From Escherichia phage allfine, in sequence record MN850633.1: a stretch of 64,000 bases of DNA; one strand, 5' to 3'. The position numbers and the translations under genes were made by a program. Numbering within the stretch: the first letter of the stretch is position 1; every line of letters begins with the position of its first letter. Shown piece by piece: positions 8,042 through 59,585 of the stretch. The notes under the pieces are model-generated. The model was not told the DNA's origin. It was given only the letters and a program-made list of their open reading frames with translations, and made no database searches.

Positions 8042-8117
8042 TGGAGAATCCGAAGGGACTCGAACCCTTATAAACCTGTTTTGCAGACAGGCACATAGCC
8101 ATTTCTGTCACGGATTC
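8042..8117 (-). tRNA. tRNA-Cys (GCA)
   Basis: Hand fold: acceptor GAAUCCG/CGGAUUC, anticodon stem CCUGU/ACAGG with loop CUGCAAA, T-loop UUCGAGU, encoded CCA. Confidence 0.7.
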
Positions 8118-8121
8118 AAAT

Positions 8122-8214
8122 TGGAGGAAGATACCAGACTTGAACTGGTACACCGATTTCTCAGCTACTGGCAGTTTAGCAAACTGCTCCCTTACCTTTT
8201 AGGGTTAATCTTCC
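8122..8214 (-). tRNA. tRNA-Ser (GCU), type II with long variable arm
   Basis: Acceptor GGAAGAU/AUCUUCC, anticodon loop UUGCUAA, T-arm ACCAG-UUCAAGU-CUGGU, 93 nt. Confidence 0.6.
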
Positions 8215-8215
8215 A

Positions 8216-8950
8216 TTATTTCTGTAATGCGCTCTTCATTTCTGGTGTTGCAATAGTGTCAATTACACCAGTTTTACAGGCATCATCAAACCAGTCTGGT
8301 AAGATACCTGCTAAGAACCCATTGATATTCGTTTTAAGGTACTCTGCAATAAGGGCAGCTTCTTCTTCAATCATCTGCACAACTTCATCTGCATAAGCTG
8401 TAATCTTTGAGATACCTTCATTAATCTTACTGACAGCTTGGTTAGCTAAATCAGAAACAGTATCAAGACCCTTGTCAATAGCGTCTTGTAAGTCACTTAA
8501 TACATCGTTAACACTCTCTAGTGTACTGTTAATCGTATCAATAGCTTTTTGACCATATTCTGTAGCAACACCCATAATACCACTGAACGGTGTACAACCA
8601 ACTTGTTCTCCTGCTGCACCCATAACATTGGAATATCCCTTTGCTACCTGCATACGTGATGAAAACTCATCAATAGACTTTTGACCGTAGTCTGTTAGGG
8701 TCTTAGTAGTTGCTGTAGTGCTTGTAAGGCTTGTTGTAAAGCTGTTTAGAAGGACTGTTGTAAGTCCAGCAGCAACAAGTTTCTCCTGCATTGTAGGGTC
8801 TGTTACAGAACTAATAGAGCTTACAAGTGATGTAGAAGCAGCTACGGTTCCACCGAGAACTGCTGCACCAGTAATAAGTGGGTTAGAAAACCCTTTACCG
8901 GTTTTTAAGAGATTAAAAATCTCCTTACCTTGTTCTGTCATCTCTTTCAT
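8216..8950 (-). CDS. hypothetical Ser/Thr-rich protein (about 244 aa from internal Met)
   Basis: ORF 8216-9013 in track; upstream 60 nt overlaps a tRNA, so start placed at Met 22 (8950); embedded inside tRNA array. Confidence 0.45.
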   Translation of the reverse strand: MKEMTEQGKEIFNLLKTGKGFSNPLITGAAVLGGTVAASTSLVSSISSVTDPTMQEKLVAAGLTTVLLNSFTTSLTSTTATTKTLTDYGQKSIDEFSSRMQVAKGYSNVMGAAGEQVGCTPFSGIMGVATEYGQKAIDTINSTLESVNDVLSDLQDAIDKGLDTVSDLANQAVSKINEGISKITAYADEVVQMIEEEAALIAEYLKTNINGFLAGILPDWFDDACKTGVIDTIATPEMKSALQK

Positions 8951-8969
8951 TAAGCACCTTTGAAATTGG

Positions 8970-9043
8970 TAGTCCAGTGGGATTTGAACCCTCTTCTCAT
9001 GTTTTTCAGACACGCGCTTTAACCATATAAGCTACTTGGACTA
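8970..9043 (-). tRNA. tRNA-Phe (GAA), imperfect fold
   Basis: T-arm GAGGG-UUCAAAU-CCCAC, acceptor UAGUCCA/UGGACUA, anticodon stem CGUGU/ACAUG loop CUGAAAA; D-arm register ambiguous. Confidence 0.5.
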
Positions 9044-9048
9044 TAAAT

Positions 9049-9124
9049 TGGGGTGACCTACGGGATTTGAACCCGTATAGACCATGTTCACAGCATGGGT
9101 CATTACCATTTATGATAAGGCCAC
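9049..9124 (-). tRNA. tRNA-His (GUG)
   Basis: Acceptor GUGGCCU/AGGUCAC, D-stem UCAU/AUGA, anticodon stem CCAUG/CAUGG loop CUGUGAA, T-arm ACGGG-UUCAAAU-CCCGU, CCA encoded. Confidence 0.8.
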
Positions 9125-9155
9125 ATTTAAGGACTCTCGTAAGAATCCTTAGAAG

Positions 9156-9231
9156 TGGCAGCGGCATAAGGATTTGAACCTTAATAAGACAGCTTCAGAG
9201 ACTGCTGCATTGCCAGTTATGCTATACCGCT
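9156..9231 (-). tRNA. tRNA-Gln (CUG)
   Basis: Acceptor AGCGGUA/UGCCGCU, D-stem GCAU/AUGC, anticodon loop CUCUGAA, T-arm UAAGG-UUCAAAU-CCUUA. Confidence 0.7.
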
Positions 9232-9236
9232 AAATT

Positions 9237-9315
9237 TGGTACTCCATATCGGATTCGAACCGATACATAACACAGATTTTAAGTCTGGCCTCTCTGCCAA
9301 TTGGAGTAATGGAGC
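9237..9315 (-). tRNA. tRNA-Leu (UAA)?, Leu-like D-loop AAUUGGCAGAG but short variable region
   Basis: T-arm AUCGG-UUCGAAU-CCGAU, acceptor GCUCCAU/AUGGAGU, anticodon loop CUUAAAA; atypical for a type II tRNA. Confidence 0.45.
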
Positions 9316-9317
9316 AT

Positions 9318-9392
9318 TGGCGGGGGATGTTGGAATTGAACCAACTTCTTCGATTTCAAAGACCGAGGTTTTAACCTTGTAAACTAATCCCC
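9318..9392 (-). tRNA. tRNA-Gln (UUG)
   Basis: Anticodon stem UCGGU/AUCGA loop CUUUGAA, T-arm GUUGG-UUCAAUU-CCAAC; acceptor pairing imperfect. Confidence 0.55.
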
Positions 9393-9401
9393 TTTAAATC
9401 T

Positions 9402-9959
9402 TTACTTTCTCAGTGGATGAATAAAGAATGCCAACATAACTCTTTCCCTTGAGAATGCTCTTTCTTCTGGGACAACACTTTTTAGTTTCCATCCAATATA
9501 AATTCTCCAGTAAAATTGTTTACCAAAGATTTTAATTGATGGGATAAAAGCGAATAATCCCCAAGCATTCCTGTTCCACATTAGGAGATAACCAGTCTGA
9601 TTATCTTCAGGGTTAGAACTTACGTTGATATTACCTTTCCACTTAGTAACATCTTTTACATCTCTTCCTAACACATGGTAAGAGAAGTTATAAGCTTTGT
9701 TTCTCCAGAGCCATCCAACTCTTTGCATGTAGACACCTAGTTTACCAATCCATCTAATATTAGCCCATCTTTTAACGTGACCTTCATCACCATCAATTGG
9801 GTTGTCATAGGTCTCCATCCATCTGAATCCAAAAGGTAGATGTCCTTTCTTCTCACTGTAGAATGGAACTACAAAAGGTGCTAAGATAACTGCTAAGATT
9901 GCTGCAAATGGCTCTAACAAAGCTAAGAAAATCCATGAAGCATACTTCAAATATCTCAT
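9402..9959 (-). CDS. hypothetical membrane protein (185 aa)
   Basis: ORF with strongly hydrophobic N-terminus (two predicted TM helices), Trp-rich; embedded in tRNA array. Confidence 0.45.
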   Translation of the reverse strand: MRYLKYASWIFLALLEPFAAILAVILAPFVVPFYSEKKGHLPFGFRWMETYDNPIDGDEGHVKRWANIRWIGKLGVYMQRVGWLWRNKAYNFSYHVLGRDVKDVTKWKGNINVSSNPEDNQTGYLLMWNRNAWGLFAFIPSIKIFGKQFYWRIYIGWKLKSVVPEERAFSRERVMLAFFIHPLRK

Positions 9960-9978
9960 CTAAATAGCCTCTTTAAAT

Positions 9979-10054
9979 TGGCGCAGGATAAGGGATTCGA
10001 ACCCCTATTAACAGCTTCGTAGACTGTTGCTCTATCCATTTGAACTAATCCTGC
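9979..10054 (-). tRNA. tRNA-Arg (ACG)
   Basis: Acceptor GCAGGAU/AUCCUGC, D-stem GUUC/GAGC, anticodon stem ACAGU/GCUGU loop CUACGAA, T-arm AGGGG-UUCGAAU-CCCUU, CCA. Confidence 0.8.
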
Positions 10055-10059
10055 AAAAT

Positions 10060-10137
10060 TGGTGTTCCAAGACGGATTCGAACCGTCACTAGTACAAGGT
10101 TTGAGCTTGCATCCTCTGCCAATTGGGATACTGGAAC
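10060..10137 (-). tRNA. tRNA-Leu (CAA)?, Leu-like D-loop, short variable region
   Basis: Acceptor GUUCCAG/UUGGAAC, anticodon stem GCAAG/CUUGU loop CUCAAAC, T-arm GACGG-UUCGAAU-CCGUC. Confidence 0.5.
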
Positions 10138-10138
10138 A

Positions 10139-10213
10139 TGGTACTCACTAAAGGACTTGAACCTTTTTCTTCATCTTGTAAGGGTGATGTTTTACCATAT
10201 AAACTAAGCGAGT
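10139..10213 (-). tRNA. tRNA-Val (UAC)
   Basis: Acceptor ACUCGCU/AGUGAGU, D-stem GUUU/AAAC, anticodon loop CUUACAA, T-arm AAAGG-UUCAAGU-CCUUU. Confidence 0.65.
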
Positions 10214-10306
10214 ATGAAAGAGGTCTGGAGTTGTGCCGCTAACTCAACTCCGTGGAATTTGTTACGGTCTTCAGTTGACTCAAAGCGGTCTTTCACTTGA
10301 CCTCTG
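10214..10306. ncRNA. structured non-tRNA element inside tRNA array (candidate small RNA)
   Basis: Terminal 7-bp pairing AGAGGUC/GACCUCU enclosing hairpin GGAGUUG...CAACUCC; no T-arm consensus; fills gap between tRNA-Val and tRNA-Thr. Confidence 0.3.
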
Positions 10307-10309
10307 AAT

Positions 10310-10386
10310 TGGTGCTGCTCACAGGACTCGAACCTGCATTTCCATCCTTACAAGGGATGTGTAATAGCCAATTATACGAAAGCAGC
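10310..10386 (-). tRNA. tRNA-Thr (UGU)
   Basis: Acceptor GCUGCUU/GAGCAGC, anticodon stem CAUCC/GGAUG loop CUUGUAA, T-arm GCAGG-UUCGAGU-CCUGU. Confidence 0.8.
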
Positions 10387-10392
10387 ATTGTT

Positions 10393-10467
10393 TGGAGCAT
10401 CCAGAGGGAATCGAACCCTCAACCTCAGTTTGGAAGACTGTAATTTTCCCGTTTAAACTATGGATGC
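10393..10467 (-). tRNA. tRNA-Gly (UCC)
   Basis: Acceptor GCAUCCA/UGGAUGC, D-stem GUUU/AAAU, anticodon loop CUUCCAA, T-arm GAGGG-UUCGAUU-CCCUC. Confidence 0.75.
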
Positions 10468-10473
10468 ACTAAT

Positions 10474-10549
10474 TGGTGGAGAAGCAGGGAATTGAACCCT
10501 GTACTTAAGTTTGCAAAACTTATGTTTTAACCATGTAAACTACATCCCC
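10474..10549 (-). tRNA. tRNA-Ala (UGC)
   Basis: Anticodon stem UAAGU/ACUUA loop UUUGCAA; acceptor carries the G3-U70 wobble pair characteristic of tRNA-Ala; T-arm CAGGG-UUCAAUU-CCCUG. Confidence 0.8.
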
Positions 10550-10555
10550 ATTGTT

Positions 10556-10631
10556 TGGTACAGGTGGAGGGAATTGAACCCATCGTCTTACTGATTAAGA
10601 GTCAGCCGCATAACCATTTTGCTACACCTGC
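10556..10631 (-). tRNA. tRNA-Lys (CUU)
   Basis: Acceptor GCAGGUG/CACCUGU, anticodon stem GCUGA/UCAGU loop CUCUUAA; paralogous to the tRNA at 11790-11865. Confidence 0.6.
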
Positions 10632-10638
10632 ATTAATT

Positions 10639-10716
10639 TGGTAGGAGACAAGGGATTCGAACCCTCAAACATCTCGTTCTAAGCGAGATAGGTTTACCAA
10701 TTACCGTCAATCTCCC
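10639..10716 (-). tRNA. tRNA-Leu (UAG)?, atypical
   Basis: Acceptor GGGAGAU/GUCUCCU, anticodon stem UCUCG/CGAGA loop CUUAGAA, T-arm GAGGG-UUCGAAU-CCCUU; D-arm irregular. Confidence 0.5.
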
Positions 10717-10975
10717 ATTAAATCTTTTTAGAGAACTTCTAAGAACCTAAGCAACAAGGTTCCACAACAAGCTGTAATAACCTTAGAAGCCCTCTAAAAA
10801 GACCTAAAAAGGTCTTTGCATAGTCTTGTTTAATCCGGTGACTAGAACCTTTGGAGAGCTTGATATTATCTCTTCTCCGTGACACCTACTAGGTGCTTTA
10901 CTGTGCGTGTACGACAATACACTAGGGATACCAAAGCAACATCCGAATGAAGCTTGGCTTTAAATCTTATTAGGC

Positions 10976-11061
10976 GGTAAGTAAAGGAGTCGAACCCTCA
11001 CCGTATCTCTACAGTGGCAACTGTTTTCAAGACAGTTTGGCTACCATTAGCCGCTACCTAC
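10976..11061 (-). tRNA. tRNA-Ser (UGA), type II
   Basis: Anticodon stem ACUGU/ACAGU loop CUUGAAA, long variable arm, acceptor GUAGGUA/UACUUAC; boundaries approximate. Confidence 0.6.
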
Positions 11062-11075
11062 CCCTAATAAGACTT

Positions 11076-11158
11076 TGGCATGGGACGGAGGAGTTGAACC
11101 ACTTTGAAACGGTTTTGGAGGCCGTTGCTCATGCCTTAGAGTCTTAACATCGTCCCAC
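11076..11158 (-). tRNA. tRNA-like, possible tRNA-Trp (CCA), atypical 5-prime half
   Basis: Acceptor GUGGGAC/GUCCCAU with encoded CCA, anticodon-like arm ACGGC-CUCCAAA-ACCGU, about 7 extra nt in D region. Confidence 0.4.
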
Positions 11159-11301
11159 ACTATAATTCGAAGCTTACCGTATTTTCACAACACTGTAAAG
11201 CCCCTTCTCAGATTATTTACATGTTCTGGAAAACATGAGATACAGACCACCTCCTTACACGGAGACCCGATAAGGTCGTCTAAGTAATCTGCTAACTAAA
11301 T

Positions 11302-11383
11302 TGGTCGAGGCGGCAGGACTCGAACCCGCATACTCCACTTACTCGGTTAACGGCGGTTTAGAAGACCGCTGAGATACGCCCCG
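11302..11383 (-). tRNA. tRNA-like, possible tRNA-Arg (UCU), lacks canonical D-arm
   Basis: Good T-arm GCGGG-UUCGAGU-CCUGC and acceptor CGGGGCG/CGCCUCG plus CCA; anticodon arm GCGGU-CUUCUAA-ACCGC directly after acceptor; 23-nt extra segment. Confidence 0.4.
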
Positions 11384-11631
11384 TAATTATCTTTAAAGAC
11401 TCTCTTAGAAAGCCCTTAAAGATGCCCACCTTATTAATCATACCGTGGGCTAGTACGCCAAATTCTTTGATGAGGGATTGGAAGACCTCACTGGTGTTTA
11501 GCCTATCAAGCTACTGCCAGAAAAACATTGTCGTTTGCATTTATTTTAAATTTGCAAAATAGACGCTACGCAACGAAAACTAAGGTTACTATAAAGTAGT
11601 CACATCTCAATGTCAACAACTTTATTGAAAT

Positions 11632-11707
11632 TGGTACTGGTAGGTGGAATCGAACCACCGATGTTCCCTTATCAGGGGAGTGTTATAACCTTCTTAACTA
11701 TACCAGC
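11632..11707 (-). tRNA. tRNA-Ile (GAU)
   Basis: Acceptor GCUGGUA/UACCAGU, D-stem GUUA/UAAC, anticodon loop CUGAUAA, T-arm GGUGG-UUCGAUU-CCACC. Confidence 0.75.
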
Positions 11708-11708
11708 T

Positions 11709-11785
11709 TGGAGGTTCAGATGGGAATCGAACCCACATTCATAGGGCTTATGAGACCCTTGCATTACCTTATCTGCGACTGAACC
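11709..11785 (-). tRNA. tRNA-Met (CAU), elongator-type acceptor
   Basis: Acceptor GGUUCAG/CUGAACC, anticodon stem AGGGU/GCCCU loop CUCAUAA, T-arm GUGGG-UUCGAUU-CCCAU. Confidence 0.75.
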
Positions 11786-11789
11786 ATAT

Positions 11790-11865
11790 TGGTAGAAGTG
11801 GAGGGATTCGAACCCATCGCCTGTCAGATTAAAAGTCTGCCGCATAACCATTTTGCTACACTTCC
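11790..11865 (-). tRNA. tRNA-Lys (UUU)
   Basis: Acceptor GGAAGUG/CACUUCU, anticodon loop CUUUUAA, D region identical to tRNA-Lys(CUU) paralog. Confidence 0.65.
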
Positions 11866-12122
11866 ATTAAATTACCTTTGTAGATAAGCTACCCAGACTT
11901 GCTTAAGGTCTGTAGCGATGTGCCTTGTTGGGTTTAAATCTAGAATTTACCCTTTCACCCTTTGTGGTCGCATACTCACAGGTAAGCTTAATAACTTATC
12001 TACAAAGATAATTACCAGACCGTTGTTTATCATCTTAAGTGCTACCATTACACCAACTCGACATCTGCCGAGTGAAGGAATCGAACCTTCGCCTTTTCTT
12101 TACCGGAGAAATAGATTGTTTA

Positions 12123-12152
12123 AGTTTTGCTGTAAACGGTCTTCTGTAAATT
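12123..12152. repeat. repeat motif TTGCTGTAA-N2-GGTCTTCTGTAAA, copy 1 of 4 in tRNA array
   Basis: Near-identical copies at about 12205-12232, 12596-12629 and 12763-12790; CCAGACC partner forms long-range inverted repeat with GGTCTTCTG. Confidence 0.5.
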
Positions 12153-12204
12153 TGTTGAGCCAGACCAAGTTTTAAATTTTCAAAATTAAATTGGCTTGAA
12201 ATTT

Positions 12205-12232
12205 CATACATTCTTGCTGTATTTGGTCTTCT
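12205..12232. repeat. repeat motif copy 2 (TTGCTGTATTTGGTCTTCTG)
   Basis: Shares core with copies at 12123, 12596, 12763; upstream partner CCAGACCAAG at about 12163. Confidence 0.45.
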
Positions 12233-12294
12233 GCTCCTTTAAAGAATACTCGTAAGAACTCTTTAAGGGAGGGGCTAAATAGCCCTCTCAAAAT

Positions 12295-12371
12295 TGGCGG
12301 CTACGATGAGACTTGAACTCACATCATCTCCCGTGACAGGGGAGTATTTTCTCCAGTTAAACTACATAGCC
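12295..12371 (-). tRNA. tRNA-Asp (GUC)
   Basis: Acceptor GGCUAUG/CGUAGCC, anticodon stem CUCCC/GGGAG loop CUGUCAC, T-arm GUGAG-UUCAAGU-CUCAU, CCA encoded. Confidence 0.85.
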
Positions 12372-12376
12372 TTTAT

Positions 12377-12464
12377 TGGTGTGCCGTGTAGGAGTCGAAC
12401 CTACCGAGTCTCAATGACAAGGGATTTACAGTCCCCACCGCTACCATCTACGGGATAACGACAC
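12377..12464 (-). tRNA. tRNA-Tyr (GUA), type II
   Basis: Acceptor GUGUCGU/ACGGCAC, anticodon stem GGGGA/UCCCU loop CUGUAAA, long variable arm, T-arm GUAGG-UUCGACU-CCUAC. Confidence 0.75.
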
Positions 12465-12476
12465 ATTTAAATTTTG

Positions 12477-12550
12477 CGGTTAGTCAGGGATTCGAACCCT
12501 GTGCCATTCGCTTAACAGGCGACCGCACATACCTTATGTGCTTCCTAACC
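12477..12550 (-). tRNA. tRNA-Asn (GUU)
   Basis: D-stem GCAC/GUGC, anticodon loop CUGUUAA, T-arm CAGGG-UUCGAAU-CCCUG; CCA not encoded. Confidence 0.75.
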
Positions 12551-12595
12551 TTAATACATTGCCAGACCGTGTTTTTCTTTTATCCGCAAAAAGTA

Positions 12596-12629
12596 GTTTG
12601 TTGCTGAATACGGTCTTCTGTAAATTTGG
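12596..12629. repeat. repeat motif copy 3 (TTGTTGCTGAATACGGTCTTCTGTAAATTTGG) with upstream CCAGACCG partner at about 12571
   Basis: Same core as 12123 and 12763 copies. Confidence 0.5.
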
Positions 12630-12703
12630 AGGCGGGTGCAGGAGTCGAACCTGCCGATACCATGCTAATGAGACATGTGAGACGCCCTTTCTCTATACCC
12701 GCA
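12627..12703 (-). tRNA. tRNA-Met or Ile2 (CAU)
   Basis: Anticodon stem CAUGU/GCAUG loop CUCAUUA, D-stem GAGA/UCUC, T-arm GCAGG-UUCGACU-CCUGC; position 1-72 mismatch in one register. Confidence 0.6.
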
Positions 12704-12762
12704 ATTCTTAATGACCAGACCAAATATCTTCTTTGTCCGATTTCGTGTCAGATGAGTAGATT

Positions 12763-12790
12763 AAGTTTGCTGTAATTGGTCTTCTGTCAA
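12763..12790. repeat. repeat motif copy 4 (TTGCTGTAATTGGTCTTCTGTCAAAA) with upstream CCAGACCAA partner at about 12714
   Basis: Same core as other copies; on minus strand reads TTGACAGAAGACC. Confidence 0.5.
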
Positions 12791-12793
12791 AAC

Positions 12794-12871
12794 TGGCGTT
12801 CCAGAAGGGATTTGAACCCTCAAATATCCACTTTGAAAGAGTGGTGACTTTACCATTTTGTCTACTGGAAC
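12794..12871 (-). tRNA. tRNA-Glu (UUC)
   Basis: Acceptor GUUCCAG/CUGGAAC, anticodon stem CCACU/AGUGG loop CUUUCAA, T-arm GAGGG-UUCAAAU-CCCUU, CCA. Confidence 0.8.
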
Positions 12872-12878
12872 ATTAATT

Positions 12879-12955
12879 TGGTCTCTGTTGGAGGACTTGA
12901 ACCTCCGGCCTTACCGCCCCAAACGGAACGCTCTACCAAGCTGAGCTAAACAGAG
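12879..12955 (-). tRNA. tRNA-Pro (UGG)
   Basis: Acceptor CUCUGUU/AACAGAG with C1-G72 typical of bacterial tRNA-Pro, D-stem GCUC/GAGC, anticodon loop UUUGGGG, T-arm GGAGG-UUCAAGU-CCUCC. Confidence 0.8.
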
Positions 12956-13072
12956 ATAAATTTTTCAAACTCTATGTAACCACTTTAACATTATTTTTTA
13001 GTGATTGTCAAGAACTTTTTTAAAATATCTTTCAGTATCTTAGAAAAGCTCTCGTTTCGTTTCTATGTAGAA

Positions 13073-13101
13073 CATATTAAAGGGTATTAAACACATTGTC
13101 A
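13073..13101 (-). promoter_or_regulatory. sigma70-like promoter TTGACA-N17-TAATAT with hairpin in spacer, facing tRNA array
   Basis: Minus strand reads GTATTGACAatgtgtttaatacccttTAATATG; 9-bp inverted repeat AAGGGTATT/AATACCCTT overlaps spacer; about 110 nt upstream of first tRNA. Confidence 0.5.
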
Positions 13102-13120
13102 ATACCCTTTTTAAAACTTT

Positions 13121-14536
13121 TTACCAGATGTAACGGTCAATCATTACTGCTTTGAGCATTACGCTGATTGGGTCAAACTTCTCACCACCAAGCAGAGCTT
13201 TTAAAGTGGCTGGAGAGAACCCTGATACCATTGCTACACCGTTATCCTTAACAGATACTTCGCAAGTACCATTACGGTTTGCTAAGTACCAGAATACCAG
13301 TTGTGGCATCTCATATCCAGCTTTTTTGTACTTACTCTGAATTGCTTCAAAGTTTGTACGACCGTTAGCTCCATCAACCTGATTGAACTCCATATCGGAG
13401 AAGATGATAAGCTTACTTGGCATATCTTTCTGAGTCAAGTTGTTTCTTTTACCTGTTTCAAGAATGCGGTCAAAAGCTGCTTGTAAGTTAGTTGAGCCAT
13501 ATTCAACGTGTCGCATCACCTGACGATGACGGTTTCGTAAATCACCACTCAGTTCGATGAAGTGAGGGTTTGTTGAGTAAACCATTAACTCATTCTTAAA
13601 GCAACCAGTATTGCGTTCTGCTACATACAAGGCAAGTGATACACCAATATCAAGGGCAGTGATTGAACCAAGATTCACCCAAGACATTGAGCTTGAAACA
13701 TCGGTCATACACAAGATGTTCTCACCTTCTGCCATCCAGTTTGGTAGTGCTTTCCACTGCTCATTGGCAACATCTGCATTACCATGCTTGATAGACTTAA
13801 TCACATCGTATGGGTAAACAGCACCAGCGTTAATCTTAGCCTCACCCTTTGAGAGTGATTCGATGTAAGCTTTGTAACGTTCTCCATCTTTACGGTTAAA
13901 GAGCTTTTGGTAACGTGCAGCAGCGAGTGAAGGAATCTTGCTGTAGTCAATCTTACCAAACTCATTAGCAGAGATTTTTTGCTCAACTGTATCAGATAGT
14001 GCAGACAACAGTGTGCGGTACTCTTTCTCACTCAAGTTGGCAAACTTGCAGAAACGTTTTATAAACTGCTTATGACGTGGTTTGACTCGTGGTAACCACT
14101 TAGCCGCCAAACCTGCTGTTGCAGGGTCTAGTAATGCTGCTTCTAGATGTTTGAAGGCATCTGTCTCGAAACGAGTACCTACGAAGATTTTGAAGTCATC
14201 AAAACGACCAAGTTCTGCAATCTTATCCATAATGCGAAGAACCTGCGTAGGCTCTAAAACTTTGTCTTCAATCGCTTGAAGTAAAACAGTTCTGAAGGCT
14301 TTACGCTCACCCATACCTTCTCGTACATCTCGCATATGAAGCAAAATACGAACTGCAACATCAACATCCTCACGCAAAGCTTTGTAGAACAGGTCTGGTA
14401 AGATTTCTACGTTGCTACGGCTTGAACCAGCAGCTTTGTAAAAGTCTACAAGAGCAGACATTGATGAAGTATGGTTTACAGCACCATTTTCAGTTCGACC
14501 TGCATGAAGGTGCGCATGTTTAAATAATTCGCTCAT
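13121..14536 (-). CDS. vWA-domain protein, possibly TROVE/Ro60-like (471 aa)
   Basis: MIDAS-type motif MTDVSSSM followed about 100 aa later by LIIFSDMEF beta strand (vWA fold) in C-terminal third; N-terminal 270 aa helical; co-directional and immediately upstream of tRNA/tRNA-like array. Confidence 0.5.
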   Translation of the reverse strand: MSELFKHAHLHAGRTENGAVNHTSSMSALVDFYKAAGSSRSNVEILPDLFYKALREDVDVAVRILLHMRDVREGMGERKAFRTVLLQAIEDKVLEPTQVLRIMDKIAELGRFDDFKIFVGTRFETDAFKHLEAALLDPATAGLAAKWLPRVKPRHKQFIKRFCKFANLSEKEYRTLLSALSDTVEQKISANEFGKIDYSKIPSLAAARYQKLFNRKDGERYKAYIESLSKGEAKINAGAVYPYDVIKSIKHGNADVANEQWKALPNWMAEGENILCMTDVSSSMSWVNLGSITALDIGVSLALYVAERNTGCFKNELMVYSTNPHFIELSGDLRNRHRQVMRHVEYGSTNLQAAFDRILETGKRNNLTQKDMPSKLIIFSDMEFNQVDGANGRTNFEAIQSKYKKAGYEMPQLVFWYLANRNGTCEVSVKDNGVAMVSGFSPATLKALLGGEKFDPISVMLKAVMIDRYIW

Positions 14537-14617: not shown

Positions 14618-14989
14618 TTATTTTTTGAGAGTCGCTACAGCAGAGAACGTTGGTTTGTTATCTGTCTGAGACTGACCACCATTATCAGGGGTCTTCTTAG
14701 TGTCTGCTGCAATCGCTTTCATCTCACCTGCTGAGTGAGTCATGATGGTTTTACCAGCCTCCATCATCGACTTCAGGTTTACATCGTCAGTCGTCAAACC
14801 GAACTCTGCAAGCTTAGCAGCATCCCTTGTAACAACCGCCTCAAACAACTTTGCAGCAAACTCAGCAGAATTATCAATGGTCAGTTGAGCTTTTACAAGT
14901 GAGCTTTTGTTACGAGAGCCTTTTGGTCTTCCAGATGGGTTTCCAGACTGGCCTTTTTTAAACTGGCCTTTGTTTGTTCTGTTTTTCAT
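14618..14989 (-). CDS. hypothetical basic protein with GNPSGRPKG motif (123 aa)
   Basis: N-terminal KGQSGNPSGRPKGS motif seen in small phage DNA-binding proteins; first gene of minus-strand unit. Confidence 0.5.
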   Translation of the reverse strand: MKNRTNKGQFKKGQSGNPSGRPKGSRNKSSLVKAQLTIDNSAEFAAKLFEAVVTRDAAKLAEFGLTTDDVNLKSMMEAGKTIMTHSAGEMKAIAADTKKTPDNGGQSQTDNKPTFSAVATLKK

Positions 14990-58784: not shown

Positions 58785-59585
58785 TTAGTGCAGTTGCTCA
58801 GCATACTCTTTTTCAGCCATAGCTGAGATTTGCTTCACAAAATCATCACCGAAGTTAATGCGTAGTTTCTCTTCAATGATTGAAGCACCAATGTTCACCA
58901 AAACATCATTGATTGCTTGCATACTGACGCCACCAGTCATCTCTTCAATGAACTCAATACTCACACCCATCATCTGTGAAAGTTGGATTAGTGCAACAAT
59001 ATTCATCATCGTAGAGATAGCTGGAATCATCAGTGCAACTTTCACCTGAAGTGGTTCTATATCAGCTACAGAGTCATTTTCAACAGCTTCTTCCAAAGAC
59101 TCTTTAGTTTGCTGTATAATCTCTTTGATTCGTGGGTTTAATTCTTCTACGCCCCAATCAAGTTTTTCATATCGTGAAAGTTTCTCTTCCATACGCTTCT
59201 CAAGAACAGCCATAATAGCACTCGTTGATGAGATAAGCATATCAATAATGAAATCAGTGTCCTTAGTCAGCAACAGTTCCTTATCTTCGTCTGACATCCT
59301 GATATAGTCATTCTTTTGCATTTCATAAAAAATGAACTCAGCAAGTGCATCAACACCAACCGCAATAGATGCCAGAGCAAGTGTAGTGTCTGTCAACATC
59401 ATATTAACCTGTTCTGCAAAAGCACCGTTATCAGACTTGTCTTCAGGCAAGTTATAGCTTGCAGGCATAAACTGTTCTGTGTAGTTGTTGCCACGAAGAA
59501 TCATAGCCATGCTTTCTACGGCATTGATTAAGAACGCTTCGTCAATACCTTTTTCTTCAAGCATCTTTTCTACATCGATATTCAT
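58785..59585 (-). CDS. hypothetical protein (266 aa)
   Basis: ORF. Confidence 0.5.
   Translation of the reverse strand: MNIDVEKMLEEKGIDEAFLINAVESMAMILRGNNYTEQFMPASYNLPEDKSDNGAFAEQVNMMLTDTTLALASIAVGVDALAEFIFYEMQKNDYIRMSDEDKELLLTKDTDFIIDMLISSTSAIMAVLEKRMEEKLSRYEKLDWGVEELNPRIKEIIQQTKESLEEAVENDSVADIEPLQVKVALMIPAISTMMNIVALIQLSQMMGVSIEFIEEMTGGVSMQAINDVLVNIGASIIEEKLRINFGDDFVKQISAMAEKEYAEQLH

What the first reader, a model, noticed from the sequence alone, without database searches (positions are those of the whole stretch)
12123..12790. Four copies of a motif with long-range inverted partner within the tRNA array
The motif TTGCTGTAA-N2-GGTCTTCTGTAAA recurs four times, three of them with an upstream CCAGACC partner 40-45 bp away that can pair with GGTCT(TCT)G. 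One copy reads TTGACAGAAGACC on the transcribed strand. This looks like a repeated promoter or RNA-processing element, or a miniature mobile element.
Basis: seen in the sequence. Interest (0 to 1): 0.4.

Follow-up and report, generated by a model that had tools for sequence, protein, structure and literature searches.

The report
Phage Y-like RNAs beside Ro60-like gene
The four repeats are the matching ends of four small structured RNA genes hidden between the tRNA genes of a Felix O1-like phage, most likely the previously unidentified RNA partners (Y-RNA-like, one a tRNA mimic) of the Ro60-like protein encoded next door, and the same RNA signature sits beside that protein family in many phages and bacteria.

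Summary
Four copies of the motif occur only at 12127-12790, and each has an inverted partner. On the transcribed (-) strand each copy is the 5' end of an element: NNNN-AGA-AGACCNN-WWWCAGCAA ... NNGGUCU-G-NNNN. This gives a 7-bp stem plus an outer 4-bp helix, both with compensatory changes. The interiors are unrelated (39-112 nt). One element (E1) carries a tRNA-like domain in the V-T-acceptor hairpin-D order of bacterial YrlA Y RNAs.

The same "7-bp stem + NUW-CAGCAA" signature is strongly enriched on the gene strand next to distant DUF2828 genes: 108 vs 22 in viral contigs and 158 vs 16 in bacterial genomes. A covariance model trained only on distant loci picks E3, E4 and E2 as the top three hits in the window.

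These are not promoters, mobile elements or tRNA pseudogenes. The most likely reading is a new, Rfam-absent variant of Ro60-Y RNA partnerships, released from the tRNA precursor. RNA expression and protein binding are inferred, not shown.

The parts
12712..12789 (-). E4: short Y-RNA-like element between tRNA-Glu and tRNA-Met. Outer helix UGAC (12789-12786) / GUCA (12715-12712); AGA bulge; inner stem AGACCAA (12782-12776) / UUGGUCU (12723-12717); UUACAGCAA (12775-12767).
   Evidence: Sequence; fold; model R1, built only from distant loci, scores 33.9 bits, E 1e-5; frame covariation.
12559..12623 (-). E3: short Y-RNA-like element between tRNA-Met and tRNA-Asn. Inner stem AGACCGU (12616-12610) / ACGGUCU (12570-12564); AUUCAGCAA (12609-12601). 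The outer helix UUAC/GCAA has one A.C mismatch in this window; it is paired as UUGC/GCAA or UUAC/GUAA in relatives.
   Evidence: (z -2.1). Model R1: best hit in the whole window, 36.1 bits, E 3e-6.
12157..12236 (-). E2: short Y-RNA-like element. Outer helix GAGC/GCUC; inner stem AGACCAA (12229-12223) / UUGGUCU (12168-12162); AUACAGCAA (12222-12214).
   Evidence: (z -2.2). Model R1: 25.4 bits, E 1.4e-3.
12012..12149 (-). E1: long YrlA-like element. Same frame: UUAC-AGA-AGACCGU-UUACAGCAA ... ACGGUCU-G-GUAA. It encloses a tRNA-like four-way junction: helix CUUAA (12124-12120) / UUAAG (12038-12034); V hairpin 12111-12095; T arm GAAGGUUCGAUUCCUUC 12090-12074; acceptor-like hairpin 12073-12056; D arm GUGUAAUGGUAGCAC 12053-12039.
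   Evidence: Fold. In 9 orthologs the acceptor-like hairpin has 3 pairs with compensatory change, and the T and D arms are invariant. Rfam tRNA model gives a partial hit of 22 bits over V+T. The V-T-AS-D order matches the YrlA description in PMC4201824.
13121..14536 (-). Gene for a 471-aa Ro60-like protein (DUF2828 + vWA-like DUF7788, with conserved DxSxS MIDAS motif D279/S281/S283). Ortholog of Bas63 gp130. Proposed protein partner of E1-E4.
12982..13102 (-). Two sigma-70-like promoter matches (13102-13074 TTGACA-17-TAATAT; 13011-12982 TTGACA-18-TAAAGT) between the Ro60-like gene and tRNA-Pro. Likely start of the tRNA/Y-like RNA polycistron.
   Evidence: Consensus scan only; not verified.
12295..12871 (-). 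Flanking tRNA genes: Glu 12794-12871, Met 12627-12703, Asn 12476-12550, Tyr 12377-12464, Asp 12295-12371. Their processing would set the ends of E4 and E3 and the 5' side of E2.
   Evidence: ARAGORN; Rfam tRNA.

Best explanation
The window comes from a Felix O1-like phage (Felixounavirus). The four repeats are the conserved 5' ends of four small non-coding RNA genes, and their inverted partners are the 3' ends. The elements (E1-E4) are 65-138 nt long and are interleaved with tRNA genes on the - strand.

Each RNA closes its two ends into a 7-bp helix (AGACCNN/NNGGUCU). The helix is followed on the 5' strand by NUW-CAGCAA and on the 3' strand by G. In this phage group it is extended by an AGA/G internal loop and a 4-bp outer helix.

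The elements are probably transcribed with the tRNAs from promoters just downstream of the Ro60-like gene. They would be set free when RNase P and the 3'-processing enzymes excise the flanking tRNAs (inferred).

By analogy with Ro60-Y RNA particles, the stem plus CAGCAA module is the binding site for the neighbouring Ro60-like DUF2828 protein (inferred from genomic association, not shown). E1 adds a YrlA-type tRNA mimic. E2-E4 are short YrlB-like versions.

The particle would modulate or tether the Ro60-like protein during infection. That protein counters the Ppl defence in Bas63. What the RNAs contribute to this is unknown.
For: 1. Repeat and pairing are real.
2. On 20 distinct frames from Felix-like and Yersinia-phage elements, 98.6% of cells are paired and 8 of 11 pairs have compensatory changes. 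This includes 3 of 4 pairs of the outer helix, which was not used for selection. Slid controls give 19-47% paired.
3. E1 folds as a four-way junction with V, T, acceptor-like and D arms. The acceptor-like hairpin covaries: AU/UA/CG, GC/UA and UG/GU/UA. This is the order described for YrlA.
5. The Yersinia phage P778 protein is 53% identical. Its array holds analogous elements with different, still complementary stems (GGACUGU/ACAGUCC, GGAUUC/GAAUCC, GGACUC/GAGUCC) and the same WWWCAGCAA.
6. In 78 diverse loci (75 viral contigs plus three other phage loci; proteins 39-63% identical to the window's), the architecture occurs 108 times on the gene strand against 22 on the other strand. Permuted-hexamer controls give 14.5 +/- 7.1.
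7. Features that were not required by the search are nevertheless conserved: A0 70%, G1 82%, U8 90%, G after the stem 81%.
8. In the 75 viral-contig loci, 51 of 78 hallmark hits lie within 1 kb of the gene, against 15% expected.
9. In 80 bacterial/archaeal loci the count is 158 vs 16, with controls at 8.6 +/- 5.2.
10. Model R1, trained only on distant viral loci, ranks E3, E4 and E2 first, second and third in the 64-kb window. It gives 40 of 40 hits on the gene strand in the bacterial set.
11. Long family members elsewhere get significant but sub-threshold Rfam YrlA hits of 35-38 bits.
12. Bas63 has all four elements in the same spacers. Its authors noted gp130's Ro60 fold and only speculated about Y RNAs.
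Against: - There are no expression, end-mapping or binding data. RNA release and protein binding are inferences.
- The canonical Ro-binding motif (GNCGAAN0-1G / CGAA) is absent.
- Rfam YrlA and Y_RNA give no hit in the window, even at E <= 10.
- Pfam TROVE does not match the protein. The protein link rests on a predicted structure.
- The outer helix is not supported in the wider family.
- The inner-stem pairing in the wide scans was a search criterion, so only the enrichment and the non-required features count as evidence there.
- gp130 alone, without these RNAs, counters Ppl when expressed from a plasmid or from the T7 genome. So the RNAs are not needed for that activity in that setting.
- The G.U versus A.C mismatch test for the RNA strand was uninformative.
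Confidence: 0.72

Rival explanations
1. The elements are cis-acting signals in the polycistronic pre-tRNA, such as nuclease entry sites or spacer hairpins that help excise the neighbouring tRNAs. They would have no life of their own and no link to the Ro60-like protein.
For: They sit exactly in inter-tRNA spacers. Spacers of 76 and 90 nt are fully occupied by E3 and E4. Some family members elsewhere enclose a tRNA-like sequence (L089 7734-7833, L203 3665-3773).
Against: In many distant loci the elements lie directly beside the DUF2828 gene where no tRNA is present within about 12 kb (L082 and L084: 0 tRNAs). In bacteria they form tandem sets upstream of the gene. Only 4 of about 20 spacers in this array carry them. 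A conserved single-stranded CAGCAA is not a known RNase P/E/III determinant (own knowledge).
Confidence: 0.1
2. They are repeated promoters (host sigma-70 or phage-modified RNA polymerase) driving sub-clusters of tRNA genes.
For: TTGACA (E4) and TTTACA (E1, E3) resemble a -35 hexamer on the transcribed strand.
Against: No TAnnnT follows at 16-18 nt, and the sites are not returned by the promoter scan. E2 has GGAGCA. The homologs in Yersinia phage and in distant loci lack any -35-like hexamer, whereas the stem complementarity and CAGCAA are kept. A promoter does not explain a covarying partner 39-112 nt downstream.
Confidence: 0.02
3. They are miniature inverted-repeat mobile elements, or DNA-level recombination sites (attC-like folded sites) that shuffle tRNA cassettes.
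For: The ends are inverted repeats. The interior varies in length and sequence, like attC sites. Phage PMBT20 has lost tRNA-Asn/Tyr/Asp and E2 through a junction that fuses the E3 and E1 5' motifs, so the repeats do act as recombination substrates.
Against: The elements occupy the same positions in Felixounavirus, Mooglevirus and a more distant relative. There are no target-site duplications, and no copies elsewhere in the 64-kb window. Orientation is fixed relative to the DUF2828 gene. The interiors contain T-arm/D-arm RNA modules. The PMBT20 deletion is explained by ordinary homologous recombination between 24-nt repeats.
Confidence: 0.04
4. They are decaying tRNA pseudogenes, or in the case of E1 a circularly permuted tRNA gene that is processed into a working tRNA.
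For: E1 contains a perfect T arm, a D arm with GG, and a 7-bp acceptor-like helix. The Rfam tRNA model scores 22 bits over part of it. Some records annotate 'tRNA pseudogene/tRNA-OTHER' in this region.
Against: - E2-E4 have no tRNA arms and match the distant short-element model.
- E1's acceptor helix is closed by a loop with no CCA end.
- The terminal stem occupies the anticodon-arm position.
- ARAGORN finds no tRNA in E1, or in an artificially re-permuted E1.
- Compensatory changes in the acceptor-like hairpin, together with invariant T/D arms, indicate selection rather than decay.
Confidence: 0.03

Closest known systems
Bacterial Y RNAs YrlA and YrlB of Salmonella Typhimurium and relatives (Chen et al. 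2014, PMC4201824; Rfam RF02553)
   Same: They are encoded next to a Ro60-type ring protein gene, with several RNAs per locus sharing one short 5' motif. The 5' and 3' ends pair. YrlA carries a tRNA-like domain in the order V, T, acceptor stem-loop, D, exactly as in E1. YrlB lacks that domain, like E2-E4.
   Different: The shared motif here is NUW-CAGCAA after an AGR-started 7-bp stem, not GNCGAAN0-1G. The partner protein is DUF2828-type, not Pfam TROVE. The Rfam YrlA model does not detect E1. The genes are interleaved with tRNA genes.
Thermus phage phiLo Ro60 with Yrl1/Yrl2 (PMC12135203; PDB 9KOP, 9L5Y)
   Different: The phiLo RNAs were picked by the CGAA motif in a bulge and lie upstream of the gene. 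Binding was shown experimentally there and not here.
Bas63 (JohannRWettstein) gp130 (bioRxiv 10.1101/2024.10.10.617714)
   Different: The RNAs were not identified. The candidates found here are not among the annotated tRNAs. They lie in the spacers and under two small opposite-strand 'hypothetical protein' calls (bas63_0137/0138). gp130 worked against Ppl without them.
Deinococcus radiodurans Yrn1 and metazoan Y RNAs
   Same: A terminal stem binds Ro60 and a variable effector module follows. Yrn1 has tRNA-like arms in normal order, as seen in family member L089 7734-7833.
   Different: They use a GGUCCGA/CGAA-type recognition helix, canonical TROVE proteins and independent transcription units.
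Phage T4 stable RNAs species 1 and 2 (rnaC, rnaD) in the T4 tRNA cluster (own knowledge)
   Same: They are small stable RNAs of unknown function, co-transcribed and co-processed with phage tRNAs.
   Different: No Ro60-like partner or shared motif is known. No sequence relation was tested here.

Membership tests
Y RNA / YrlA-YrlB class (Ro60-associated ncRNA) | Encoded adjacent to a gene for a Ro60/Rsr ring protein (HEAT-repeat TROVE module plus vWA domain) | tested here: met
Y RNA / YrlA-YrlB class (Ro60-associated ncRNA) | 5' and 3' ends base-pair into a terminal stem that encloses a loop or module | tested here: met
   7-bp stem plus 4-bp outer helix; 98.6% paired; 8 of 11 pairs compensatory; folds.
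Y RNA / YrlA-YrlB class (Ro60-associated ncRNA) | Conserved Ro-binding motif GNCGAAN0-1G (bacteria) or GGUCCGA (animals) near the 5' end | tested here: not met
   No such motif is present. The shared motif is AGACCNN-WWW-CAGCAA, with family consensus AGRNNNN-NUW-CAGCAA.
Y RNA / YrlA-YrlB class (Ro60-associated ncRNA) | YrlA: tRNA-like domain with V, T, acceptor stem-loop and D arms in that order | tested here: met
   Met for E1 only: fold and covariation in the acceptor-like hairpin; CUAU (YUAY) precedes V. E2-E4 lack the domain, which makes them YrlB-like.
Y RNA / YrlA-YrlB class (Ro60-associated ncRNA) | Match to Rfam models YrlA (RF02553) or Y_RNA | tested here: not met
   No hit in the window at E <= 1 over 6 kb or at E <= 10 over 441 nt. 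Long family members in L069 and L148 score 35-38 bits against a gathering score of 69.
Y RNA / YrlA-YrlB class (Ro60-associated ncRNA) | Physical association with the Ro60 protein and accumulation as a discrete small RNA | not testable with these tools
   Needs RIP/CLIP, EMSA, Northern blot or small-RNA sequencing.
DUF2828-associated stem+CAGCAA RNA family (defined here) | 7-bp stem starting AG, NUW-CAGCAA after the 5' strand, G after the 3' strand, same strand as and near a DUF2828 gene | tested here: met
   Model R1, built from 36 elements of distant loci, ranks E3, E4 and E2 as the top three hits in the window (E 3e-6, 1e-5, 1.4e-3). E1 shares the frame, but its long interior limits the score (15.6 bits).
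Sigma-70 promoter | -35 and -10 hexamers 16-18 nt apart, conserved among relatives | tested here: not met
   The sites are not returned by the scan. The -35-like hexamer is absent in E2 and in the Yersinia-phage homologs.
Miniature inverted-repeat transposable element | Terminal inverted repeats with homologous interiors, target-site duplications and variable insertion sites | tested here: not met
   Interiors are unrelated. Positions are syntenic across genera. No other copies occur in the window.
tRNA gene, pseudogene or permuted tRNA gene | Complete cloverleaf with anticodon arm and open acceptor end, recognised by ARAGORN or the Rfam tRNA model | tested here: not met
   ARAGORN finds none. 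Rfam tRNA scores 22 bits, below the 29-bit threshold, on E1 only. Re-permuted E1 is not recognised.

The most novel reading that the evidence does not exclude
DUF2828-type proteins and 'stem + NUW-CAGCAA' RNAs form a second, previously unrecognised branch of Ro60-Y RNA particles with its own RNA recognition code. It is widespread in tRNA-rich phages and in bacteria, notably Clostridia and Chloroflexi, with up to seven tandem RNA genes per locus. Its cargo modules range from nothing to tRNA mimics in both topologies. In Felix O1-like phages the RNAs would gate or retarget an anti-defence protein (the Ppl counter) or act as tRNA decoys.
Probability: 0.45. Interest if true: 0.8.

Novelty: new variant of a known kind. 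Interest (0 to 1): 0.7.

Why it matters
- Ro60-Y RNA particles are a conserved but poorly understood RNA-surveillance system. In bacteria the RNA partners have been found only beside proteins annotated as TROVE.
- This analysis gives concrete, testable RNA partners for a Ro60-like phage protein that already has a phenotype (a counter to the Ppl defence in Bas63).
- It shows that the RNAs are hidden in tRNA-array spacers and are mis-annotated as small ORFs.
- It defines a simple signature that finds hundreds of similar RNAs next to DUF2828 genes in phages and bacteria, none covered by Rfam 15.
- It offers a natural series of Y-like RNAs with different tRNA-like cargos for studying how Ro60-type rings read RNA.
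- It improves annotation of a phage genus used in typing and therapy.

Tried and rejected
- **Promoter reading:** no -10 element; not returned by the scan.
- **Terminator reading:** no U tract after the stems.
- **Rfam:** no family apart from tRNA covers the elements in the window or the short elements elsewhere.
- **Sequence search of the protein or its profile against PDB:** nothing found. Only the fold comparison worked.
- **Pfam TROVE at E <= 10:** no match.
- **Coding potential:** the ORFs across the elements are short and overlap tRNA genes. Indels in A-runs among orthologs are not in multiples of three.
- **Outer helix in the wider family:** not supported; mean best run 3.34 against 3.46 for shuffled partners.
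- **G.U versus A.C mismatch test for strand:** uninformative, 7 vs 10.
- **Re-permuting E1 into tRNA order:** ARAGORN finds nothing.
- **Fifth model hit at 59067-59127 (-):** lies inside a 266-aa ORF and is judged chance.
- **Vibrio phage phi-pp2 candidate (L050 near 340-480):** has AUACAGCAA, but its stem is out of register; left undecided.
- **DUF5681 neighbour gene as a general partner:** found only in Ounavirinae-like loci.
- **Literature search for Felixounavirus small-RNA or transcriptome data:** nothing useful.
- **Supplement of Chen et al. 2014:** not held, so I could not check which phages they listed.

Full report
**Source and context.** The 1.2-kb region is 96-98% identical to many Felixounavirus genomes (Felix O1-like myophages of E. 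coli and Salmonella). It is 82-83% identical to Mooglevirus genomes. The window carries 25 tRNA genes, all on the - strand, from 8042 to 12955. The finding lies in the promoter-proximal part of this array.

**Check of the observation.**
- The 18-nt core GCTGTAANNGGTCTTCTG is found at 12129, 12216, 12603 and 12769 with 0-2 mismatches. The expectation is 0.54 hits at up to 3 mismatches, and no shuffle reached the observed number.
- GGTCTTCTG is found 7 times against 0.47 expected.
- CCAGACC on the + strand occurs only at 12015, 12160, 12562 and 12715.
- A search for AGACCNN followed by its exact reverse complement returns one partner for each of the four copies, with 39, 52, 54 and 112 nt between the arms.
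- So all four copies have a partner, not three. The partner of the first copy lies at 12017-12023, outside the stated coordinates.

**Anatomy on the transcribed strand.** Each element reads 5'-NNNN-AGA-AGACCNN-WWW-CAGCAA ... NNGGUCU-G-NNNN-3'.
- The NN of the inner helix is GU/AC in E1 and E3 and AA/UU in E2 and E4.
- The outer tetranucleotides are UGAC/GUCA (E4), GAGC/GCUC (E2) and UUAC/GUAA (E1).
- E3 has UUAC/GCAA, with one A.C mismatch in this window. Relatives have UUGC/GCAA or UUAC/GUAA.
- On 20 distinct frames from Felix-like phages and a Yersinia phage, 98.6% of cells pair and 8 of 11 pairs show changes on both sides. Sliding the partner by 1-3 columns drops pairing to 19-47%.
- The outer helix was not used to collect the sequences, yet 3 of its 4 pairs covary.
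- The interiors of the four elements are unrelated to each other but conserved among orthologs.
- E3 and E4 fill the whole 76-nt and 90-nt spacers between tRNA genes.

**E1 is a tRNA mimic of the YrlA type.**
- Its interior folds into a four-way junction closed by CUUAA/UUAAG.
- The junction holds a hairpin in the variable-arm position, a canonical T arm (GAAGG-UUCGAUU-CCUUC), a 7-bp acceptor-like helix closed by a 4-nt loop, U8-like UG, and a D arm with GG.
- Among nine orthologs the T and D arms are invariant. The acceptor-like hairpin exists in three versions (ACUCGGC/GUCGAGU, ACACGU/GCGUGU, ACCCUUC/GAAGGGU) that keep pairing. Three pairs have compensatory change.
- Chen et al. (PMC4201824) describe exactly this order (V, T, acceptor stem-loop, D) for YrlA, with YUAY at the start of V. 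E1 has CUAU there.
- E1 is not a cryptic tRNA gene. ARAGORN finds nothing in it, or in an artificially re-permuted version. The Rfam tRNA model scores only 22 bits over V+T.

**The neighbouring gene.**
- The 471-aa ORF at 13121-14536 is on the same strand and ends 166 nt before tRNA-Pro. It matches only DUF2828 and DUF7788 in Pfam and PHROG 850 'RNA-binding protein'.
- Sequence searches against PDB find nothing.
- An AlphaFold model from 40 homologs (pLDDT 88.8, pTM 0.88) matches Ro60 over its full length. The Foldseek top 12 hits are all Ro60/TROVE proteins (E 6.5e-8 to 1e-5).
- A DxSxS MIDAS motif is invariant in the family.
- The ortholog in phage Bas63 is bas63_0130. A preprint reports that gp130 resembles Ro60, counters the Ppl defence, and sits upstream of the tRNA genes. 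It speculates that 'some tRNA genes are possibly Y RNAs'.
- Bas63 has all four elements, in the spacers and under two small opposite-strand 'hypothetical protein' calls.

**Link between the RNA signature and the protein family.**
- In Yersinia phage P778 (protein 53% identical), the array downstream of the gene holds three analogous elements. Their stems differ but remain complementary, the motif is the same WWWCAGCAA, and one has a T arm.
- I then took 75 viral contigs encoding homologs only 39-48% identical. I added three other phage loci whose proteins are 46-63% identical. In these 78 loci I counted the architecture: 7 nt, 3 nt, CAGCAA, then the complement of the 7 nt within 15-170 nt.
- It occurs 108 times on the gene strand, 22 times on the other strand, and 14.5 +/- 7.1 times for 59 permutations of the hexamer.
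- Features that the search did not require are conserved: A at stem position 1 (70%), G at position 2 (82%), U in the middle of the 3-nt spacer (90%), G right after the 3' strand (81%), and an A-rich run before it.
- In the 75 viral contigs, 51 of 78 hallmark hits lie within 1 kb of the gene ends, where 15% would be expected.
- In 80 bacterial and archaeal genome or MAG loci the counts are 158 against 16, with controls at 8.6 +/- 5.2. There are up to seven tandem copies upstream of the gene.
- A covariance model built only from 36 short elements of the distant viral loci ranks E3 (36.1 bits, E 3e-6), E4 (33.9 bits, 1e-5) and E2 (25.4 bits, 1.4e-3) as the three best hits in the 64-kb window.
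- The same model finds 40 hits at E < 0.01 in the bacterial set, all on the gene strand.
- Sizes fall into a short class (46-70 nt) and a long class (about 90-180 nt). Twenty-two of 105 elements contain a T-loop-like GTTCRA.
- Long members get significant but sub-threshold Rfam YrlA hits (L069, 38 and 34.8 bits; L148, 37.7 bits; gathering score 69).
- Two members enclose a tRNA-like sequence in normal order, as in D. radiodurans Yrn1.

**Interpretation.** *Shown here:*
- the repeats are the paired ends of four conserved structured elements on the tRNA strand;
- one of them is a YrlA-type tRNA mimic;
- the adjacent protein has the Ro60 fold;
- the stem+CAGCAA signature co-occurs, strand-specifically and at close range, with this protein family across phages and bacteria;
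- no Rfam 15 family covers the signature.

*Inferred:*
- the elements are released as small RNAs by tRNA processing of a transcript starting at the promoter-like sites at 13102-12982;
- the stem plus CAGCAA is the protein's binding site, playing the role that GNCGAA(N)G plays for canonical Rsr.

*Unknown:* what the particle does. Known Y RNAs gate Ro60 or tether it to PNPase. That could apply here, but gp130 alone rescues T7 from Ppl. So the RNAs are not required for that activity in that setting.

**Rivals.**
- Promoter, terminator, MITE and tRNA-pseudogene readings each fail a direct test.
- A purely cis-acting role in pre-tRNA processing is hard to reconcile with loci that have the elements beside the gene and no tRNAs.
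- The repeats do serve as recombination substrates. PMBT20 has lost tRNA-Asn/Tyr/Asp and E2 through an E3/E1 hybrid junction. This is a side effect, not a function.

**Novelty.**
- Phage Ro60 homologs with Y-like RNAs are known in mycobacteriophages, CcrColossus, phage G and phiLo.
- The Ro60-like fold of the Felixounavirus protein has been noted.
- New here are the identity and location of the candidate RNAs, their distinct recognition signature, and the breadth of the DUF2828-associated family.
- I rate this a new variant of a known kind, of considerable interest. All functional steps still await experiment.

Noticed in passing
window 11866-12014 (- strand): A 149-nt strongly structured element sits directly 3' of E1 and 5' of tRNA-Lys. 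MFE is -47.7 kcal/mol (z -5.3), with a 24-bp closing stem. It is conserved in Felixounavirus and in a distant relative (L051), with 7 of 42 pairs compensatory. Its internal hairpin CAGAC-CUUAAGCAA-GUCUG(G) echoes the repeat (AGCAA, GUCUGG). No Rfam family matches. In Bas63 it is annotated as an opposite-strand ORF (bas63_0138). It may be a fifth partner RNA or a separate sRNA.
   Followed up: partly
L002 (Salmonella phage PMBT20) 1827-2013, compared with window 12127-12620: PMBT20 lacks tRNA-Asn, Tyr, Asp and E2. The junction is a hybrid whose 5' flank comes from E3 and whose body comes from E1. This indicates a deletion by recombination between the 24-nt repeats.
   Followed up: partly
L089 7734-7833 and L203 3665-3773: In distant loci the same stem+CAGCAA frame encloses a near-complete tRNA-like sequence in normal order. 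The L089 case looks like tRNA-Thr: Rfam tRNA 52.9 bits, a weak acceptor stem and no CCA. So the cargo of the frame varies: none, a YrlA-order mimic, or a normal-order mimic.
   Followed up: partly
window 59067-59127 (- strand): The covariance model gives a fourth hit here (24.4 bits, E 2.4e-3; AGAGAUU-AUA-CAGCAA with a bulged 3' strand). It lies inside a 266-aa ORF (58785-59585) and is probably chance.
   Followed up: partly
window 11305-11383 and 11081-11160 (- strand): These are tRNA-like sequences missed by ARAGORN. The first scores 31.7 bits with Rfam tRNA, just above threshold. Related phages annotate tRNA-Arg and tRNA-Trp in this stretch. The array may hold 26-27 tRNAs.
   Followed up: no
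window 14618-14989 (- strand): A DUF5681 gene (PHROG 4114, function unknown) lies directly upstream of the Ro60-like gene. It is conserved next to that gene in the Yersinia phage, L051 and L057, but not in the other 150 or so loci. It is therefore a lineage-specific neighbour, not a general partner.
   Followed up: yes
distant short elements, e.g. L061 9409-9469, L072 9398-9455, L099 14882-14931: Many short family members contain a second (A)AGCAA in the interior. In the Yersinia phage, CCAGCAAC follows the 3' strand. A possible second copy of the recognition motif was not analysed.
   Followed up: no
L074 1317-1767 and L153 6027-6307: Loci carrying DUF2828 genes also encode tmRNA (a permuted tmRNA in L153, 98.9 bits) besides tRNA arrays. 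This hints that the protein travels with translation-related RNA genes.
   Followed up: no
L050 (Vibrio phage phi-pp2) about 340-480 and 5972: A KVP40-like vibriophage with a DUF2828 gene has AUACAGCAA after a 9-bp stem strand in its tRNA region, but out of register with the family frame. It also has UUACAGCAA 30 nt upstream of the gene start. Status undecided.
   Followed up: no
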